Source of the DNA: Fistulifera solaris
Taxonomy: Eukaryota
DNA: 64,000 bases
Reading direction: 5' to 3'
Assembly: GCA_030295235.1 (NCBI GenBank)
Contig: AP026149.1
Coordinates: 1 to 64,000, forward strand
Position 1 is the first letter of the stretch, and each line of letters starts with the position of its first letter. Below the pieces are notes generated by a model. That model was not told the origin of the DNA, ran no database searches, and saw only the letters and a list, made by a program, of their open reading frames with translations. Position numbers and translations under genes: made by a program. Shown here piece by piece: positions 1-59,300 of the stretch.

Positions 1-260
1 CCTAACCCTAACCCTAACCCTAACCTCCTAACCCTAACCCTAACCCTAACCCTAACCCTAACCCTAACCCTAACCCTAACCCCAACCCCAACCCTAACCC
101 TAACCCTAACCCCAACCCCAACCCCAACCCTCAACCCTAACCCTAACCCTAACCCTAACCCTAACCCTAACCCTAACCCTAACCCTAACCCTAACCCTAA
201 CCCTAACCCTAACCCTAACCCTAACCCTAACCCTAACCCTAACCCTAACCCTAACCCTAA
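1..260 (+). repeat. Telomeric repeat array (CCCTAA)n, i.e. a TTAGGG-type chromosome end
   Basis: About 43 tandem CCCTAA units from base 1, with a few CCCCAA/CCCCTAA variants. Confidence 0.98.
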
Positions 261-264
261 CGTT

Positions 265-2985
265 CTTGTCGGGACGGACGCGTCAAGCCGCCCGACAGCT
301 CACTTCCCGTGCCTCGGTGGCTCTGCTCGACCCACAGGATATCGATGCTAAATCGAACTGTCCTGTGCTTCGAGGTCCTCCCGATCCAAGCATCCGGGCT
401 TGCGAGTCCCGGATCTGGATCGAAGGGCAGACGGCTTTTGAGGCATATGATTCATGCCCAGAAGTCCTTCCTCAGGTCATCTCTGCCGGCCATCGAAATG
501 GACGGGCGCCAAGCTTTCCGGCGGGCGGGACCCAGCGGTATTGATTCCGCTGACCTTCGCCACTGGCTCCTTCGATTTGGTTCACACTCGGAGGGGTTGC
601 GCACGGAGCTTGCCGCATGGACACAGTGGTTCTGCAATGGCGACCCGCCATATGCAGCTCTTCGCGGCGCTTCATGGCTTGTCGACTGGTAGCTCTTGAT
701 AAGGAACCGGGTGTCCGCCCGGTCGGCATCGGAGAGATCTACCGTCGCTCATGGCAAAGACTGTTGTTCGCCTGGCAGGCCACGTGGCTACGGAGTCATG
801 TGGCAACTTCAATCTCTGTGCTGGACTTGCTGCCTGGCATTGAGAGTGCGGTCCATGCTGTCAGGTCTCGGGTTCGAAGCGACCGAGCGCAAGGAACCTC
901 CTGGAGAAGAAGAGAGTGTGGACATCCTCGGCCAGGGCCTGGGCTAATGCCGCGTCCCGCGGCCCCCAGTGAAAGCCCCGCCGAGGTCGTAGAGTCTGAC
1001 GATCTGGAGGCTGTTCTACTAGTTGATGCCCGCAATGGCTTCAACGAACTCAGCCGCTTTGGCGATGCTCTGGACGGTCCGGCCATCTGTGGCCGCATGG
1101 AGCTCGCTTTGCCTTTCAATGCTATCGCCATGCGGGCGGTGCTGATTGTCCGCCAACGATCGTAGTTCTGTGCGACCATACTGAGCTGGAAGGCGCCACC
1201 CAAGGTGACCCTCTCAGCATGGTCCTGTATGGTCTCACTCTTACACCACTCGCCAGCAAATTCAAGGCCGCTACCAAGGATGTTGTTCAGCCCTGGTACG
1301 CCGGACGATATGGTTATGGCGGGAACGGTCCGTGGCATTGCGAATGCAACACTTTTGTTGCAGCGCTTTGGCCCCTAATCGCGGGTTACTTCCCCCTAAC
1401 CGGAAGAGCATCCTGGTCTGCCGCGAAGCACACCAGGCTCAGGCCCAGCGCAACTTGGCGGCATTTCACTTTCAGTATGCCACAGGAGCTCGCTACCTGG
1501 GAGGATTCATTGGAAGCCCCATTGATCAAGCCGGAGTGGCTTAAGCCTCAGATCGATGCGCGGTGCTTCGGGGTCCGTGTTTGGCGAAAGCCGCAATGCA
1601 GTATCCACAGACTGCATATGCTGGCCTCTGCAAGTCACTCCAGGCTGAGTGGCTTTACTTGCAGAGAGTGCTTCCCGACCGCGGTGGAAGCCTTCGCCCC
1701 ATTGGAGCGTGAAATCCGGGAGAAGTTCATTCCTGCCCTCCTCGGCGAGAATGAAGCGCCAGGAGATGCACTGCGCTCTCCTGACGCAGCTGAGCGTTAA
1801 GTCTGCAGGCCTTGGGATCCTCAACCCCACCTCCACGGCTGCCCACAATCACGCCCAGCTCTCTCTATCACGGAATCCGGCCGTGACAGTCTTCTCTCGA
1901 AGCGCTCCCTTGAATGTTGGCGGCACACCAGTCGCGATGCGAGGGAGCGCGCCGCGACTGCAGGGGGGAGCGACAGGCTGCAGATGCTGCCCAGCTCCAG
2001 CAGATCTGTCAGCAGGAGGGCCCGCGCGAAACTCGCTGCCTCCTTAAAGCCAGACACACAGGTCTCTGGCTTTCTGTCCTTCCCCAGACCCTGAACGGCA
2101 CGGACCTTTCCCGCGATGAGTTCCGCGACAGCCGCCCCGATCCTAATGGTCTCCCAGTGACCGCGCTACCAGTCACCTGTGATGGTGTGGCAAACCCTTC
2201 ACTCTCGCCAAGCACTCCCAAACGTGCGGCAAGAAGGGTGGACTGGTAACGATGCGACATGATGACCTGAAAATGGAAGTCATGTCCCTCTGTGCACAGG
2301 CCTTCAGCCCCGGTGTGGTTCGGGCGATGAACCCAAAATCAACACCTATCGCGACACACCGGCTGTTGGCTTAGACACAGAAGCTTCGGAGTTGCGTGGA
2401 GACATCTCTACCCATGGGTTCTGGACCCGGGTAAGACCACCATCTTCGACGTCCGAAAGTCACGGACACTGACGCCCCATCCCATTCAGGCCAGGACCCC
2501 TTTAAAGTCCTTGCCAAGCAGGAGCGCGGAGAAGCGGGACCTCTATGAAGAGCCCTGCAGGGCACGCCGACGCAGACTTTACTCCCCTCGTCTTTTCTGT
2601 GGATGGGTTGATGGGTGAGCAAGCCACGGCCGCTCACACGCCTGGCTCGGCCGCCCTGTCCAAAAGTGGGGGCGATCGTACTCTACCGCGGTGTGGATTT
2701 GTACGATCGCGCCTGAGTATCTCACTGGTCCGGTCTGTCAGCATGTTGCTGCCGCGACCGAGGGATGGAGCCCCTCCGCTGATAGACCCACCTGGGATGG
2801 CTCAGGTCTTTTGCTCTATTAGAGCTGCTGCTCTCCCATCTGGAGTCCATTCTTCTCTTGTGCAACCTGCCACTTGCATTTCTGGCTGCATCATTCTCAT
2901 TGCATCTTCCCCATCACCCCACATGTCTCAACAGGCTGGTTTTCGTAGTTCTAGCTTAATTTCTTCCTATAGCTGCGTTTTTTCC
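265..2985 (+). mobile_element. 5'-truncated CRE-clade (CRE/SLACS/MoTeR-like) non-LTR retrotransposon with RT and C-terminal restriction-like endonuclease
   Basis: Motifs read across shifting frames. RT: RLVALDKEPGVRPVGIGEIYRR, LLVDARNGFNELSR, QGDPLSMVLYGL, WYA(DD), YLGGFIGS, GLGI. Then a Zn-knuckle region ending RHDD, and RLE motifs RGDISTHGFW, FDVR, VTDTDAP, FTPLVFSVDGLMG. GC-rich, with a short pyrimidine-rich 3' UTR. Flanked by ACCCTAACCCTAACCCTAACGTT on both sides. Confidence 0.9.
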
Positions 2986-3008
2986 ACCCTAACCCTAACC
3001 CTAACGTT
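2986..3008 (+). repeat. Interstitial telomeric repeats (CCCTAA)3-CGTT; probable target-site duplication of 242-264
   Basis: Identical 23-mer at 242-264 and 2986-3008. Confidence 0.85.
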
Positions 3009-3379
3009 GACGTACGATCGATTGGGGATACTATTTTCCTGTCCCTCCATGTACTTGATTACCCTAACTCTTACTGGTACTTGTACAAGGTACTTTAAAT
3101 TTTGGCGAGGGCTTGGTAAACCCTAAAGTGCCAGAAACTGGCACTTTTAAAATTTTTTTGGATATTATTTATGTATGGTAACATACCAAAAATTTACACT
3201 GGTACACTCAAAGCAATGAAAGCTATTTTCCTGTCCCTCGATGTACTTAATGGACTACAACGTATATTTTTACGGCATCTGAACCAGAAGGTATTCTCGC
3301 ACTAAGGCTAGGGAGTTAGAACCAAAGCTTACTCATTGAAGTGTCAGACTGAAATATATGTGAATGAAAAGTGGTTAAT

Positions 3380-6300
3380 TGACAAATGCCGGACAAATTG
3401 GGTCGCGGTGCGCTACTCAACTTGTTTCTAGTAGACTTTCTACATACGTACCCGTCTGTTTGCGGACCGCTTGTCCGGCAATCGCCGATAATGGTAAAAC
3501 ATCTTCAGATCATTTTTCGTACAAGTGCAACGTGTCTTTTGTAGAGAATCAATCGTCGGCAAACTTGAGACAATTGCCGGACAAATTTTGGCTGGTAGCT
3601 TTTCTACAGGAGTGACAAGTTCTTACTTGGCAAAAATCCGAACCGCAAAAGCACCCACAGCTGAGCCCACAACAATGGTGCAAATGACAATTACAGCCTT
3701 TTATTCCAAGAATTGTTACTACCATAACCAACAGAAACCTCATCATGTCAGCTCAAAACGTACCAGTACAAGCAAATGTCGTTGCAGGCCGCGTGGTCCT
3801 TGCACGACCAATGTCACTACAGCAGATGGATGATGGGATTGTTTCGAAAAACGCCTTTTAGTTCCTATTGTAATGGCATCATACACTTCATCAACTGGTG
3901 TGCTGTGCAAAATGTTGACGAGACATCGGAGCTTTTGACGGAACTTGCTAAAGAAACAGTTAAAGATTGTCGAGATCCCAATGAAGGCGAGCAAGAAGAA
4001 ACATAGAGCTCGGGTGAAAGCTGTTTATATGAATCTGATTCGCGAATGCCAGAAACAGTCCTCTTGTTATTGAAGAGAACATTACTCCTGGCCTTGTTAT
4101 GAAGTACATTGCATCGGGGGCCAATCAGCAAACTGGGAAAGCGCTTTCACGATCATCCTACAAGGGAAAACGCTCTGCCATCTTTCATTTGTTACGTTGT
4201 CATAATGGACGGGGTCCCACGGAGGAGTACAAGCAGCGCATTGGAAACTATTGGAAGGGATTTGGAAGGAAGCGGAGTAATAGGAGTCCTCAGAATGAAG
4301 ACGAGAATGAAGATGGAAATGGCGACAGTAGCGATGATGAGGAAGACGACCGTGATGAGCTCAATGAAGGCAAGGAGGCTATATCCACCGAGCTGTACCG
4401 TTCAATCCTCAAATGGCTGCTAGAATATGCATCAGTTGACAGCTTGCTTGCTGCTTGTTTCATTTGTCTCACATGGAATCTTGCTTGCCGCAGTAACAAT
4501 ACGGCAAAATTGAAGCTTAGTCACTTGTCCTGGACAAAGTTCGATGCAATGCAGATAAACTTCAAGCACACAAAGACAGATGTAACTGGAGCAGAAAAGC
4601 AAGTTAAAAGAAATCTGTATTCCAACATCAATGAGCCCCGACATTGACTTCACGTTCTTGCTTGGTCTATATCTAGCAACAAACTTTACCACGGTGCAAG
4701 AAGCTGGCTATCGATTGTTCCCGGGACTTCCGATAGTACAACAAAACGCGTCAGCCGTAAGCTTCAGGAGGTACTTGAGCTTCACGAAGATGAAGTCATA
4801 GCTATGGGATATGCTTCCATCTCCGACATTGGCTTACATTCTCTCCTAAAAGGCGCAGCTACTTATTTGGGATCGCTGCCAGGTGGGCCATCTCCAGTAG
4901 CAATATGCCACCGATGCGGTTGGAGTACTGGCAAGGTGTTGGATATCTATTTCCAGCAACTACAACGCTGGAGATGAATTTGTTGGGCGTGTCTTTCTCT
5001 CTTAAATTTGATGTCTAGTGACTTTGCATCGCCACTCCGCGCATTTTTGCCCAGAAGTTGTTGACAATGAATGGATGGCAAACTGTGTTAAGAAAGTGTT
5101 TCCTTGCTTCCATCATATCAACGGCATGCAAAAGATTCTACAACGTTGTCTTGCAAGCATGATTCACCACCACGATTATGTTGCGCGATTTGAGGCAAAT
5201 CATCCAGCAAGAAAATCTATTGCTATCTTCCGCGATTACAACCTCATGGAACATGGTCTGGCTGCTTTAAAGACTCATAAAGCCTGGGATACAACAAATC
5301 ACATATCTGGAGTACCCCCTCATGTGAAGGAGCTAGTGGATCTAGCTGAAATCAAGGACCAGCTAGGATCGATTGCTGAAAGGATATTTGAAAAGGTGAT
5401 GAAAGGCGTGACTGATTATTTTGAGACTCGACTTAATTGGTGGCGGTGAATTAACTGAAGAACGCCCTGATGGAGCTTATACAGCGAAGCTTCGGATAGT
5501 ACACGCCTGAGGTTTTTGATAGACTAACATTGCAACTAGAGCGTTTGGTCGAATCTTTTCAACAGAATCCCCTTCGTGGAATGTACGTTGAAGAGCCTAC
5601 CAATGGTAACGCGATTCTCATCAACTGAGTTGCCCATCGACTTTGAATTTCCAAGATCAAACACATTGGATTTGTGGGTGCAATGGAATACTCCAAATAG
5701 AGAACAAAATATTCCTGCATTAAAGAACGTAAGCACAAAATCCTACAAGTTCCTTGATGAAAACAGCGATCAGCGGGTGAATGTAACAGATCGCCTCGCT
5801 TGCAAGCCAACCTAAAAGGAAAGAGACGGGAATCCCGAAGGACGGCAAGCTTACATGAAAATTCTCTGTCAATTTATTGAGGCCGGGCGCGGAAATTTGG
5901 TTTTGAAACTATTTCAGAGTTGAACATGCAGGAGGCTTTTGAGACGGTGGCAAAGAATTTGGGTTTGGCCAGGAAGCCTGGACCACAACATTGAAAGCCG
6001 TTCAAAAGTTGAAGAATGCAAGGAAAAATGCACCAGCTGTAGAAGCCGAAGAAGACCACAACGTCAGTGAAACACCACAGGATGCTTCCAATAGAAGGAC
6101 AGGATCAAGGCGAGCACGGCACTCCAGCGGTGAAGAAAGTAGCACAGATACTTCGTAATGGCATTTCTCGGCCCCAGGCAAAGACGGGCGAACACAATCA
6201 GCAATAGTGATGCAGACACCACATCAGTGACTGCAGCAACCGTTACAAATAGAAGAAGGGGATCAAGCCAGATTTGCATCACCAATACACAAGTACGCCA

Positions 6301-56322: not shown

Positions 56323-59300
56323 CGCTCCTCGGCCGGATTCGATTCGGGCAAGTCGAGGGAGCTAATGTGCTTGTATCCCATGATCACGTCAGCAGCTTGT
56401 AAAAAAGGTTTCCCTGTAGCGGCTTGGTGAAGAAATCAGCTAACATGCTCAACGTCTGACAGTGGCGAATCTCAATATCTTCCGTTTTGATCCTGTCCTT
56501 GATAAAGAAATAACGGATGTTGATGTGTCGCGACTTTGGTCCCGCCGACGTGCGTCCATTCTTCTCCAATTTAATCGCACTCTCGTTGTCCTGCTCCAAC
56601 ACATTTTCAACTATCTCATATCCTTGGGACTCGAGGAACATCTTTAACCACAACGTGTTGGGTAGATAGTCGCTCGCACCAACCAATTCAGCTTCGGTCG
56701 AACTCTTCGTGTTTAACTTCTGTTTCGTCGACTTACAGATCAATCCTCCAGTTCCGAAAGAAATGACCCCACCTGTGTGACTCTTCATGTCTGGATGTAC
56801 TGCATATGACGCATCTACCCAAGTGCGCGCAGTTTTCCAAGATCGTCGGCTCCTAAGGTAAACGCAATGTCTAAGGTTCCATTCAAATACTCCAGGACCC
56901 TCTGTAGCTTTTCGTAATCTTCCTTGGTCGACTTGGACACTCTGGTACAAAGGAAACACACTGGTAACAAAATATCCATTCGGGCCCTGGTGGCCACGTA
57001 TAGTAGTTTTGCCGCAATACTGTGAAAACGTTCGGCATCTTCCTTTTCCAAAAACGGGAGTTCTTCGTCCACGTCAAACAACTGTTTCTTTGCCGGGAGT
57101 AGCCGCGAGTGCGTGTCTTGTCTAGACCAAACTCTTCAATCGCCTCAAGAAGGTACTGCTTCATTTTGATTGTCGCTGTGCCATCACCATTGTAATTAAT
57201 GTTCATGCCAAGGAAGTTATGCTCGTTTCCGCGGGTGACACTCATTTTCCCAAATTTGGACTCAATCTTCTCGATCACCTCCGTCACAACATCCGGATCC
57301 TGGTGAGAGATCTTTGTATCGTCTACATACCACACGATGGTGCACTGCGATCCTTTTATCATGCAATTGGCCACGCACTGGTCGTACGGGTTCAACTCAA
57401 AACCCATGGACTCCAATTCCTCTGAAAACACTTTGTACCACAGAAGGGCACTCTTTACACATCCGTACAGGGCCTTGGCCAATCTCACGTACAGGGTCGG
57501 GACTCCGTTCTCTACTATGGTATACTGCTTGTACATCTCGTCCATTTCGCAAATGATTTCGACGGATTTCCCAGTAAATTTCATTAGAACAAAATCGTCC
57601 ATCTTTGCTTTCAAGTAAGCACCAGCAACGTCCGCCGTGCCAACATGGCGCCTCTCGAAAGCATCAATCATAATAGAAATGAGTAGCGCATCGGACGAAA
57701 CCGTGGGGGACGCCGTTTCAGTTTTGTCGTATAATTCCCTTTGGGGTCTACCATCTGCAACCGTTCTTCCCTTCAATGTTCCATCACGCTTTTCTTTTAG
57801 TAGGTTGATGGCTCTTAATGCTGATCGACGCTGCTCCGGCGTTAGTTCCCCTGCATGCATCGGGTAAAAAACATTGAGGTTGTGTAGTTGACGGAACTCG
57901 TTCATTAGCGCTTCTTCGGCTCGTTTTCCATGTTTTCGATACCCTTTCTTTTCTGACATCTGTGTGAACACTAACCCAAAAATCAGGCGCTGGACTACAT
58001 CGCTGTCAGGGGACTGCGGTAAGGCTTCTACTGCTTGCTGTAGTAAAGTCACCGGTGGAAGATACGACTGGTTGCTGTGTGGATTGTCCATGGCATCCGC
58101 AAAACGGGGATTCTGTCCGCTGCCGTTCACGTAGATGGTAGCCGTGGGTCGCTCCTTGAATTTCCGCTCCTTGGTCTTCCGCTCCTTGATTTTCCGCTCC
58201 TTCGTCTTCATCTGCAGCCGGGATTAACGCCTCATCTGGGAGTACGAGGTCATTAGGTTGGTCGTGTGGAAGATGGTCAAGCACCTCGGGCGGATTCTCA
58301 GCATCCTCGGGCTCGGGGGTCTGGGAAGTGGACGAAGAGTGGGTTGTCATTGTCGTCAGGCTCGTCTGCTTCGAAAGGTGGGTTGTTATTTTCGTCAGGC
58401 TCGTCTGCTTCATCAGCCAGAATCGCTCCTTGATGGTCGTCAGTGGGGGCAGACAGATCATCATCTGTAGGCTGAAGCAGGGAAAAAAGTTCGTTGTCGT
58501 CAATGGGAAAGAAATTGGCAGGGACGTCTTCATCGTCGGGGGTCAAGGCCGGGTGTGAAGTCGGGATCGTAGATGTCGTCGTCAACAGGGGGCGTCGGGG
58601 CGCCATTCAACGGCTAAACCACTGGATTGAATGAAAGGCATGCCATCGGCGGCGGCGAGGGCGTCGACACGAGCAATTGCGGTATCGGTAATGTGGAATT
58701 CCTGCCAGGACCGACGAACAACGCGAGCGCCGGTGGCAAGGGAAAGGAAGTAGTAGTCACCATTTGCATTGCCGGTGGGACCCATGGCAATGGCGCCCAA
58801 AGTGCGTGCTTTCACAGTGTTGGAAGGATCATTGTCTTCAAAGATCTGCACATAGGCACCAAAATCAAGCTTGAACTTGTTGTAGTCCGGCAAACCGCGT
58901 CCGGTGACAATCGTGGACGGGCTCAGTGTCTGGGAGACCCCATTCTTCCGCGGGAACATGTTGAGGCAATCCACAGTGTTGGCCACCAAGTGTTTGAGCA
59001 TGAGCTTGGGGAGACGGCGATAAGGCATGGCGTGGACTGCGGAACGGAGACGTACTTTGACTGTTTCAATTGAGCGCTCAACTTCGGGCACATGACTGTC
59101 TGGAGCGACTACATCGAGGTGAACAGGGGCGATATGTGGTCGGATACACTCAAACTCGGCGTCACAGTGGAAATCGCGGACGGTAAAACCTCTGGCCTCA
59201 TAGAGTCGTGCGACGTTCTTGCTCTCACGGACCATGACGGCTTTGCTGCGGTCGGCAACAGATTTGGCGGTGCGAAAACCAATGTTGCGAGAAATGGTGT

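What the first reader, a model, noticed from the sequence alone, without database searches (positions are those of the whole stretch)
242..3008. Telomere-junction-targeted CRE-clade non-LTR retrotransposon with a telomeric TSD
Seen: an RT+RLE element lies directly inside the terminal CCCTAA array. Its 5' end faces the chromosome tip, and the same 23-mer ACCCTAACCCTAACCCTAACGTT occurs at both ends (242-264, 2986-3008). That 23-mer includes the non-telomeric CGTT that begins the subtelomere, so it looks like a TSD made exactly at the telomere/subtelomere boundary. Known: RLE-bearing CRE-clade elements are often site-specific (spliced-leader genes in trypanosomatids; telomere repeats for MoTeR in Magnaporthe, same orientation). 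Inference: a telomere-targeting retrotransposon family in a diatom-like genome, which I do not recall being described. It may remodel chromosome ends.
Basis: partly seen in the sequence, partly recalled or inferred. Interest (0 to 1): 0.85.

Follow-up and report, generated by a model that had tools for sequence, protein, structure and literature searches.

The report
Telomere-lodged retrotransposon in a diatom
A shortened copy of a jumping gene that encodes its own reverse transcriptase and DNA-cutting enzyme sits at the base of a diatom chromosome's telomere, and it belongs to a previously unnamed diatom family whose members lodge in simple DNA repeats.

Summary
The 23-mer occurs at 242-264 and 2986-3008 and brackets a 2.7-kb GC-rich insert between a 43-unit CCCTAA array and the subtelomere.

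The insert is the 3' two-thirds (residues 281-1127) of a single-ORF non-LTR retrotransposon. It carries a reverse transcriptase followed by a CCHC plus restriction-like endonuclease (RLE) domain, whose model matches R2 structures first. Its 5' end faces the chromosome tip.

Telomere association goes beyond this copy. A full-length relative (L001, 79% nt identity) has CCCTAA repeats on both sides. Short-read contigs of run X1 show a second 3' junction with a different flank. More distant relatives are flanked by (AC)n, (AAC)n or (ACT)n, so this is a simple-repeat-seeking clade with one telomeric lineage.

The target-site duplication (TSD) is likely but not proven. Twenty of its 23 bases are telomere repeat, and GTT is also the element's own sequence in L001 (AAG TTC). 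Chance would give the CGTT match in about 0.2% of random healing events. I favour target-primed insertion with a 20-23-bp TSD and 3-nt microhomology.

CRE-clade membership could not be tested. The many frameshifts may be assembly errors. No diatom telomeric LINE turned up in my literature searches. It is a new member of a known kind.

The parts
1..261 (+). Terminal telomere array, 43 units of CCCTAA with a few variant units in 24-134
242..264 (+). Left copy of the 23-mer ACCCTAACCCTAACCCTAACGTT (candidate TSD copy)
262..264 (+). GTT shared by the subtelomere start and the element itself (aligns to L001 1553-1555, where the upstream base is A). This is microhomology at the 5' junction
265..2985 (+). 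5'-truncated copy of the non-LTR retrotransposon (2721 bp; 2724 bp if GTT is counted). It is 79% identical in DNA to full-length L001
263..2822 (+). Remnant of the single ORF, equal to residues 281-1127 of P0001. It is spread over all three frames (29 ungapped pieces); stop TAG at 2820-2822
525..1510 (+). Reverse-transcriptase core (AGPSGID ... LLVDARNGFNEL ... QGDPLS ... WYA(D)D ... YLGGFIG)
2106..2819 (+). C-terminal CCHC + restriction-like endonuclease domain (CDG(C) about 2178, RHD 2255-2263, RGD to 2403, FDVR from 2448)
2823..2985 (+). 3' UTR ending ...GCGTTTTTTCC. The last approximately 10 bases are shared with L001 (...CCCGTTTTTCC)
2986..3008 (+). Right copy of the 23-mer: three internalised telomere units (2986-3004) plus CGTT
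3005..3400 (.). Start of the AT-rich subtelomere (CGTTGACGTACG...)

Best explanation
The insert is a 5'-truncated copy of a single-ORF non-LTR (LINE-type) retrotransposon. The element encodes a reverse transcriptase followed by a CCHC zinc knuckle and a restriction-like (PD-(D/E)XK) endonuclease. It belongs to a telomere-repeat-specific lineage within a diatom clade whose other members sit in (AC)n, (AAC)n and (ACT)n repeats.

The most likely history is target-primed reverse transcription (TPRT) at the base of the telomere. All steps below are inferred.
1. The endonuclease nicked the G-rich strand inside TTAGGG repeats, about 20 nt from the subtelomere (TTAGGGT^T).
2. That 3' end primed cDNA synthesis on the RNA's 3' end (...UUUUUUCC, possibly with read-through telomeric letters that set the register).
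3. Synthesis or joining stopped at residue 281 of the ORF.
4. The C-rich strand was cut just past the last repeat (CGTT^GACG). Its GTT-3' end annealed to AAC in the cDNA.
5. Fill-in produced a 20-23-bp target-site duplication with 3 nt of microhomology.

The old telomere stayed distal as the cap, and three repeats became internal. About 0.85 for 'a telomere-repeat-specific RLE retrotransposon inserted here'; about 0.6 for the whole account including the TSD.
For: Identity of the element:
- P0001 residues 281-1127 align to window 263-2819. 819 of 1127 positions are filled at 75% identity.
- A profile of 30 relatives hits LINE-1 ORF2p (E 2e-6 to 4e-5) and R2 proteins (E 3e-4 to 0.015) in the PDB.
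- The C-terminal domain model has pLDDT 88.4. Its seven best PDB matches are all R2 retrotransposon proteins (E 8e-6 to 7e-4). Viral cap-snatching endonucleases come next.
- C25, H36, C40, R49, H50, D97, D113 and K140 are invariant in 48 relatives.

Telomere specificity:
- L001, a full-length relative, has (ACCCTA)8 before its 5' end and (ACCCTA)6 after a 3' end that shares ...CGTTTTTCC with the window.
- In run X1 one 68-nt contig covers 2932-2999 without a difference. A contig then leaves the window at 2999 into other sequence. This is a second 3' junction, with 14 telomeric letters.
- The window copy, P0001 and L001 form a clade (support 100). It lies inside an 11-row clade (support 99) of (AC)n- and (ACT)n-flanked elements.
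- Every flanking repeat is C/A-rich on the sense strand.

TSD: the chance of the CGTT match under random healing is 0.18%.

Fungal counterparts behave alike. MoTeRs always have the 5' end nearest the tip (PMC7367193, passages). FoTeR 3' ends carry 3-8 repeats (PMC12857005, section 19).
Against: - GTT of the 23-mer aligns to the element's own sequence in L001 (GGG AAG TTC TTG), and C is the next telomere letter. All 23 letters of the left copy can therefore be explained without a duplication.
- Only one copy with both junctions in unique DNA is available.
- No empty site was seen.
- No TSD was found in 14 copies of distant relatives examined. Several of those flanks look like contig or adapter artefacts, so that test is uninformative.
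- The contig path through L001's telomere repeats may be ambiguous. Its head-to-tail arrangement is therefore not secure.
- Endonuclease activity and nick sites are untested.
- X1 may be the sample the window was assembled from, so it is not independent support.
Confidence: 0.6

Rival explanations
1. Same telomere-specific element, but no TSD. A longer or full-length copy at the chromosome end lost its distal part by breakage or attrition. Telomerase then added new repeats onto the exposed element sequence (...CAAGAAC + GTTAGGG on the G strand). The shared GTT is coincidence.
For: - GTT is element sequence in L001.
- In Magnaporthe, canonical telomeres are attached to truncated MoTeR sequences, and de novo telomere addition to truncated MoTeRs is a documented repair route (PMC7367193, passages).
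- The proximal 127 bp of the array (135-261) are perfect repeats.
Against: - It needs a coincidence in both phase and three letters: 29 of 16,272 (0.18%).
- The exposed 3' end ...GAAC has no likeness to the telomeric G strand.
Confidence: 0.25
2. Endonuclease-independent end addition. A critically short telomere (three repeats left) used its G-strand 3' end to prime on the element RNA. The new end was then capped by telomerase, as proposed for endonuclease-deficient Penelope-like elements and for Drosophila HeT-A/TART.
For: - Orientation and the very short repeat tracts proximal to the element fit: 3.2 units here, 14 letters at the second X1 junction, 6 units in L001.
Against: - The family keeps an endonuclease domain with invariant catalytic-type residues.
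- Relatives sit at internal repeats with unique DNA beyond.
- It needs the same 0.18% coincidence for CGTT.
Confidence: 0.07
3. Assembly artefact: a chimeric or mis-joined contig end places an element between telomere and subtelomere.
For: - The copy differs from X1 contigs by 46 substitutions and 66 one-letter gaps over about 2.6 kb. All 12 indels listed are surplus letters in the window. This suggests a poorly polished contig end.
Against: - X1 short-read contigs cover 271-1255, 1267-2876 and 2932-2999.
- The first of these contigs starts 39 letters before 271. That is where the first 31-letter word containing G262 would start (my inference, taking 31-letter words for these contigs from recall).
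- An error process would not create a 23-letter direct repeat.
- L001 shows the same architecture in another organism.
Confidence: 0.05

Closest known systems
MoTeR1/MoTeR2 (Magnaporthe oryzae) and FoTeR (Fusarium oxysporum) telomeric retrotransposons
   Same: - Non-LTR elements with RT plus a C-terminal CCHC/REL endonuclease, embedded in (CCCTAA)n.
- The 5' end lies nearest the chromosome tip.
- Many copies are 5'-truncated.
- A few telomere units follow the 3' end: FoTeR 3-8; here 2.3, 3.2 and 6.
- Sources: PMC7367193 passages; PMC12857005 passages and section 19.
   Different: - The host is a diatom, not a fungus.
- L001's 5' end has no TTCGGG(TTTGGG)n-type variant repeats.
- The motif reads RGD where they have RAD or R/KPD, and two spacers differ by one residue.
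- Its nearest relatives sit in microsatellites.
- Kinship of the RTs was not tested.
- The FoTeR authors could not define a TSD. Here the insertion lies so close to the boundary that one may be readable.
Microsatellite-specific RLE non-LTR elements: Togen, (TG)n, near NeSL; some HERO families; Dong in R4 (the last recalled)
   Same: RLE-encoding LINEs that insert into simple repeats in one orientation (PMC4640811 passages). Here 8 of 52 relatives with long ORFs have the same repeat on both sides.
   Different: Those families are from animals. The clade relationship is untested. Here one lineage has moved to the telomere repeat.
GilM/GilT of Giardia
   Same: They are listed among retrotransposons that insert at telomeres (PMC10088271 passages). 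That they carry an RLE and form head-to-tail arrays is recalled, not seen in a call.
   Different: Different host supergroup. No sequence comparison was made.
TRAS/SART of Bombyx (R1 clade)
   Same: Telomere-repeat-specific, orientation-specific LINE insertion (PMC10088271).
   Different: They use an N-terminal apurinic-type endonuclease and poly(A) tails (recalled). This family has a C-terminal RLE and no such Pfam hit.
R2 retrotransposon proteins (solved structures 9dou, 8iby, 8gh6 and others)
   Same: The fold of the C-terminal zinc-knuckle plus RLE module is the best PDB match.
   Different: 13-18% identity. R2 targets 28S rDNA through N-terminal zinc-finger/Myb domains (recalled). No such domains were detected here by Pfam.

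Membership tests
Non-LTR retrotransposons with restriction-like endonuclease (CRE, R2, R4, NeSL, HERO group) | LINE-type reverse transcriptase | tested here: met
   RT motifs can be read in the window frames. They align to P0001. The profile of 30 relatives hits LINE-1 ORF2p and R2 RT regions in the PDB. Pfam RVT_1 is only sub-threshold.
Non-LTR retrotransposons with restriction-like endonuclease (CRE, R2, R4, NeSL, HERO group) | CCHC motif and PD-(D/E)XK-type endonuclease C-terminal to the RT | tested here: met
   P0001 reads C-x2-C-x7-H-x3-C-x8-RHD-x21-E-x21-RGD-x15-D. Key residues are invariant in 48 relatives. The model has pLDDT 88.4. Its top 7 PDB matches are R2 proteins.
Non-LTR retrotransposons with restriction-like endonuclease (CRE, R2, R4, NeSL, HERO group) | 3'-anchored, 5'-truncated copies without LTRs | tested here: met
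   The window copy starts at residue 281 of 1127 and has a complete 3' end. L001's full-length copy is bounded by telomere repeats, not LTRs.
CRE clade (CRE1/2, SLACS, CZAR; MoTeR and FoTeR are placed near it) | RT groups with CRE/SLACS/CZAR in a phylogeny | not testable with these tools
   No reference sequences of named clades could be obtained. The 120 listed hits and carry no clade names.
CRE clade (CRE1/2, SLACS, CZAR; MoTeR and FoTeR are placed near it) | REL motif C[x1-3]C[x7-8]H[x3-4]C[x9-10]RHD/N.x19-33.E.x9-21.R/KPD.x12-14.D/E (as quoted in PMC12857005) | tested here: inconclusive
   The order and most spacers fit. Exceptions are x8 where x9-10 is expected, x15 where x12-14 is expected, and RGD for R/KPD. 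From recall, the motif is shared by RLE elements generally, so it does not assign a clade.
MoTeR/FoTeR-like telomeric retrotransposons (behaviour) | Embedded in telomere repeats, 5' end towards the tip, short repeat tract after the 3' end | tested here: met
   Window, L001, second junction in X1. Compare.
MoTeR/FoTeR-like telomeric retrotransposons (behaviour) | Variant telomere-like repeats at the element's 5' end | tested here: not met
   L001's 5' end reads (CCCTAA)8 then ATCCTACCGACCGACG.
TRAS/SART (R1 clade) | Apurinic/apyrimidinic-type endonuclease N-terminal to the RT | tested here: not met
   No such Pfam match in six relatives or in the full L001 ORF. The endonuclease is the C-terminal RLE.
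Endonuclease-deficient Penelope-like telomeric elements (Athena, Coprina) | No endonuclease domain | tested here: not met
   A conserved RLE domain is present.

The most novel reading that the evidence does not exclude
The lineage is not merely telomere-repeat-specific but junction-seeking. The G strand is nicked within the last few repeats, and the C strand is cut a few letters into unique DNA. Copies therefore always lodge at the very base of the telomere, and a TSD spanning the boundary becomes readable. Repeat tracts of 14, 19 and 36 letters at three junctions fit this. So does L001, where ATCC follows the repeats both at the 5' junction and, one letter later, at the flank. Such elements would be a standing buffer between telomere and genes in diatoms. 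The switch from (GT)n-primed to (TTAGGG)n-primed insertion would show how telomere specificity evolves from microsatellite specificity.
Probability: 0.2. Interest if true: 0.7.

Novelty: new member of a known kind. Interest (0 to 1): 0.5.

Why it matters
Telomere-specific LINEs have arisen several times: in insects, fungi, Giardia, Chlorella and a lizard. I found none reported for diatoms or other stramenopiles.

This one comes with its evolutionary context. It is part of an abundant environmental clade of about 1100-1300-residue 'hypothetical proteins' that sit in C/A-rich simple repeats. That makes the change of target from microsatellite to telomere traceable.

The insertion lies only three repeats from unique DNA. 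It may therefore be one of the few telomeric LINE insertions where the length of the target-site duplication can be read. The FoTeR authors state that they could not do this.

In practice, such elements explain GC-rich blocks and interstitial telomere tracts at diatom chromosome ends, and they can mislead telomere-based scaffolding. In Magnaporthe, interstitial tracts of three or more repeats promote breakage (PMC7367193). The same may hold here.

Tried and rejected
- Whole-genome search: no genome is held for this window, so other copies could not be tabulated.
- Pfam on 13 raw frame pieces of the insert gave nothing usable.
- The look-up of sequencing runs: one holder (X1, 0.33 of the words). 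No RNA holder is listed. X2 and X3 laid nothing.
- X1 contig depths rise towards the 3' end (12.7, 44, then 49.5+31.5, then 102). The tool warns that contig depth is no copy number, so I do not use them.
- Exact 3'-junction pattern in genome contigs and viral contigs: 0 matches each.
- P0001 in the same two collections: no relative.
- TSD search at 14 copies of distant relatives: the longest shared words were 4-7 letters, which is no TSD. Two 5' flanks (L009, L025) carry what I recall as a sequencing-adapter sequence, so these contig ends are unreliable.
- The loose-end flank of X1 does not occur in the window.
- ESM Atlas gave only generic 'hypothetical protein / RVT_1' clusters (after two unanswered tries).
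- The IQ-TREE 'quick' run did not finish, so FastTree was used. L002 and L013 sit there on very long branches because their longest ORF is another gene.
- Homopolymer test of the indels: 8 of the 12 listed positions lie in runs of 2 or more, against 45% of all bases. Not decisive.
- Earlier findings of this scan: nothing.
- Starnes 2012 (PMC3374306) is not held. What I say of MoTeR comes from PMC7367193.
- No supplements were opened.
Full report
**What is in the sequence.**
- The window opens with 261 bases of CCCTAA repeats: 43 units, 96% matches. They are in the orientation expected of a left chromosome end.
- From 265 to 2985 lies a block of 52-63% G+C. The following 9 kb have 38-48%.
- The 23-mer ACCCTAACCCTAACCCTAACGTT stands at 242-264 and at 2986-3008. 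The sequences diverge directly after each copy.
- CCCTAACCCTAA occurs nowhere else in the 64 kb: 33 matches, all in 6-260 or 2987-3004, and none in 100 shuffles.

**What the insert is.**
- Its reading frame is broken into many pieces, and Pfam sees nothing in the pieces.
- A search with one piece found 149 proteins, mostly 900-1300 residues long, on contigs of about 4.2 kb.
- The best hit, P0001 (1127 aa), aligns from residue 281 to its last residue with window 263-2819, hopping between all three frames. There are 29 ungapped pieces. 819 of 1127 positions are filled, at 75% identity.
- The RT motifs can be read directly in the frames.
- A profile of 30 relatives (A1) hits LINE-1 ORF2p (E 2e-6 to 4e-5) and R2 proteins (E 3e-4 to 0.015) in the PDB. 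These are 8 of the 10 sequences at E up to 1. The other two are designed proteins.
- The C-terminal 235 residues were modelled from 48 relatives, with pLDDT 88.4 and pTM 0.84. The seven best PDB matches are all R2 retrotransposon proteins (E 8e-6 to 7e-4, TM 0.46-0.56). Cap-snatching endonucleases of bunyaviruses and arenaviruses follow. I recall these as PD-(D/E)XK enzymes.
- P0001 reads C-x2-C-x7-H-x3-C-x8-RHD-x21-E-x21-RGD-x15-D. This is close to the REL motif quoted for CRE/SLACS and MoTeR/FoTeR in PMC12857005 (passages).
- C25, H36, C40, R49, H50, D97, D113 and K140 are invariant in the 48 sequences.
- So the element is a single-ORF RT + RLE non-LTR retrotransposon. The window holds its 3' 65%, with a complete 3' UTR (2823-2985).

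**The host.**
- The window carries ordinary eukaryotic genes: BRO1, HMG box, MFS, a bicarbonate transporter, an S28 peptidase and a copia-type RT.
- Named relatives of the transporter fragment are diatoms. Fistulifera solaris is at 69%, and Epithemia clementina and an Amphiprora transcriptome are at 60-61%.
- The only organism names among the listed relatives of the element are Fragilaria crotonensis and one partial protein of a bacterial MAG, presumably mis-binned.

**Is the family telomere-associated?** Three lines say yes for this lineage.
1. *L001.* This is a 4549-bp metagenome contig whose ORF is 91% identical to P0001 and whose DNA is 79% identical to the window copy.
   - It holds a full-length element with an ORF at 225-4097.
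   - (ACCCTA)8 precede its 5' end. (ACCCTA)6 follow a 3' end...CCCGTTTTTCC, that matches the window's ...GCGTTTTTTCC. Unique, ORF-like DNA comes after that.
   - Its first 44 bases repeat the element's 3' end, which suggests a head-to-tail pair. The contig path through the telomere repeats may be ambiguous, so I trust only the individual junctions.
2. *Run X1* (coded; possibly the window's own sample, so not independent).
   - Contigs cover 271-1255, 1267-2876 and 2847-2961.
   - A 68-nt contig covers 2932-2999 with no difference.
   - One contig leaves the window at 2999, after ACCCTAACCCTAAC, into different sequence. That sequence is absent from the window.
   - This is a second 3' junction with a short telomeric tract.
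3. *Rarity of the lineage.*
   - Among 79 fetched loci, only L001 has CCCTAA repeats.
   - In the 5.8-billion-protein collection, nothing but P0001's own cluster exceeds 57% identity to P0001.

**The wider clade.**
- I kept the 52 of 79 loci whose longest ORF is at least 800 aa and dropped the other 27. I then added P0001 and the window copy.
- Fifteen of the 52 have a simple repeat within 700 nt after the ORF.
- Eight of the 52 have the same unit on both sides:
  - (AC)n in L006, L035, L049, L056, L067 and L077;
  - (AAC)n in L047;
  - (ACCCTA)n in L001.
- (ACT)n separates head-to-tail copies in L011 and L014, with 4, 8 and 10 units. (AC)3 and (AC)13 do so in L015 and L016.
- All these repeats are C/A-rich on the sense strand, so the priming strand is always G/T-rich.
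- In a FastTree tree (local support only), the window copy, P0001 and L001 form a clade (support 100). It sits inside an 11-row clade (support 99) with (AC)n- and (ACT)n-flanked elements.
- A third clade of 25 rows mostly lacks such flanks.
- The telomeric lineage thus looks like a target shift within a simple-repeat-seeking group. This behaviour is known for RLE elements (PMC4640811, passages).

**The TSD question.**
- Twenty of the 23 letters are telomere repeat and carry no information.
- The window aligns to L001 from base 262 (GTT) onwards. L001 reads GGG AAG TTC TTG there.
- So GTT can be the element's own sequence, and C261 is simply the next telomere letter.
The answer is AGTT, in a relative 79% identical.
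- Two readings remain:
  - (a) TPRT with a 20-23-bp duplication and 3-nt microhomology at a truncated 5' junction;
  - (b) no duplication, with a telomere healed onto a truncated element.
- Under (b), with a random break point and random repeat phase, the left junction would reproduce CGTT in 29 of 16,272 cases (0.18%).
- Reading (b) is a documented fate of MoTeRs (PMC7367193, passages).
- I weigh (a) at roughly 0.6 and (b) at 0.25.
- A weak second hint comes from L001. ATCC follows the repeats at the 5' junction (CCCTAA-ATCC-TACC), and, one letter later, at the flank (CCCTA-T-ATCC-GGTG). The element's true 5' end is not known, so this may be chance.

**State of the copy.**
- Against X1 contigs the window shows 46 substitutions and 66 one-letter gaps over about 2.6 kb. 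All 12 indels listed are surplus letters in the window, and 44 further indels are not shown.
- The 3' UTR end and flank contigs show 0-1 differences.
- An excess of indels over substitutions suggests unpolished long-read errors in a repeat rather than decay. I could not settle this: 8 of the 12 positions lie in homopolymer runs against a 45% background.
- The copy is truncated in any case.

**Mechanism.**
- *Shown:* the domain set, orientation, truncation, junction sequences and the repeat context of relatives.
- *Inferred:* the G-strand nick within TTAGGG about 20 nt from the boundary; priming on the RNA 3' end; the C-strand cut just beyond the last repeat; microhomology-guided second-strand priming; and survival of base-of-telomere insertions because longer internal tracts break, as in Magnaporthe.

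**Comparison and novelty.**
- It works like MoTeR and FoTeR: the same orientation, and the same short 3' repeat tracts (FoTeR 3-8 units).
- Whether it is their kin (CRE clade) could not be tested.
- It is not a TRAS/SART-type element, because it has no apurinic-type endonuclease. It is not an endonuclease-less Penelope-like element either.
- A 2023 survey lists telomere-inserting retrotransposons in insects, Giardia, Chlorella, Pyricularia, an anole, rotifers and Drosophila, but none in stramenopiles (PMC10088271, passages).
- The Phaeodactylum annotation and telomere-to-telomere papers report no autonomous LINE or telomeric element in the passages I read (PMC5859163; PMC9266582).
- Four full-text searches found no diatom case. 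Subscription journals and Repbase reports are not covered.
- Verdict: a real feature. It is a new member of a known kind, with a likely but unproven boundary-spanning TSD.

Noticed in passing
L004, L006, L016, L035, L047, L049, L053, L056, L067, L077, L011/L014, L015/L016: Distant relatives (33-55% aa identity) end in or are bracketed by (AC)n, (AAC)n or (ACT)n, always C/A-rich on the sense strand. Head-to-tail copies are separated by variable numbers of units: (ACT)4, 8 and 10; (AC)3 and 13. The 5' ends of L014 and L016 share a GGTCCC...GAGCAAGG...GGGACCC inverted repeat.
   Followed up: partly
L001:4294-4549: The DNA directly after the six telomere units is open in one frame for 84 codons (no Pfam match). 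It looks as if a telomere had formed inside or beside a gene, or the contig is chimeric.
   Followed up: partly
L001:118-137: The 5' UTR of the full-length relative holds an inverted telomere-like motif (TTTTTAGGGTTAGC). It might be a binding site for telomere-repeat-binding factors. Untested.
   Followed up: no
window 3059-3068 and 3117-3127: Isolated telomere-like words (ACCCTAAC; AAACCCTAAA) lie in the AT-rich subtelomere just inside the insertion.
   Followed up: no
window 3298-3400: Very high summed contig depth in run X1 (1905, against 12-120 nearby), with several loose ends. This points to a short high-copy repeat in the subtelomere.
   Followed up: no
window 4099-5449 (+): Three adjacent ORF pieces (182, 57 and 143 aa) in different frames. 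By eye they recall the catalytic region of a tyrosine recombinase (Crypton-like?). Pfam found nothing for any of the three pieces; the PDB sequence search, run on the first piece only, found nothing.
   Followed up: partly
window 56883-58211 (-): A 442-aa ORF with an RVT_2 (copia-type) reverse transcriptase, E 1e-18. It belongs to an LTR retrotransposon unrelated to the finding.
   Followed up: no
L009:223-241 and L025:12-31: The 5' flanks of two metagenome contigs carry a sequence I recall as a transposase sequencing adapter. Those contig ends are therefore artefacts, not genomic junctions.
   Followed up: no
window 24-134: Variant telomere units (CCTCCTAA, CCCCAA x5, CCCTCAA) are confined to the distal half of the array. 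They may be real variants or read-end errors.
   Followed up: no
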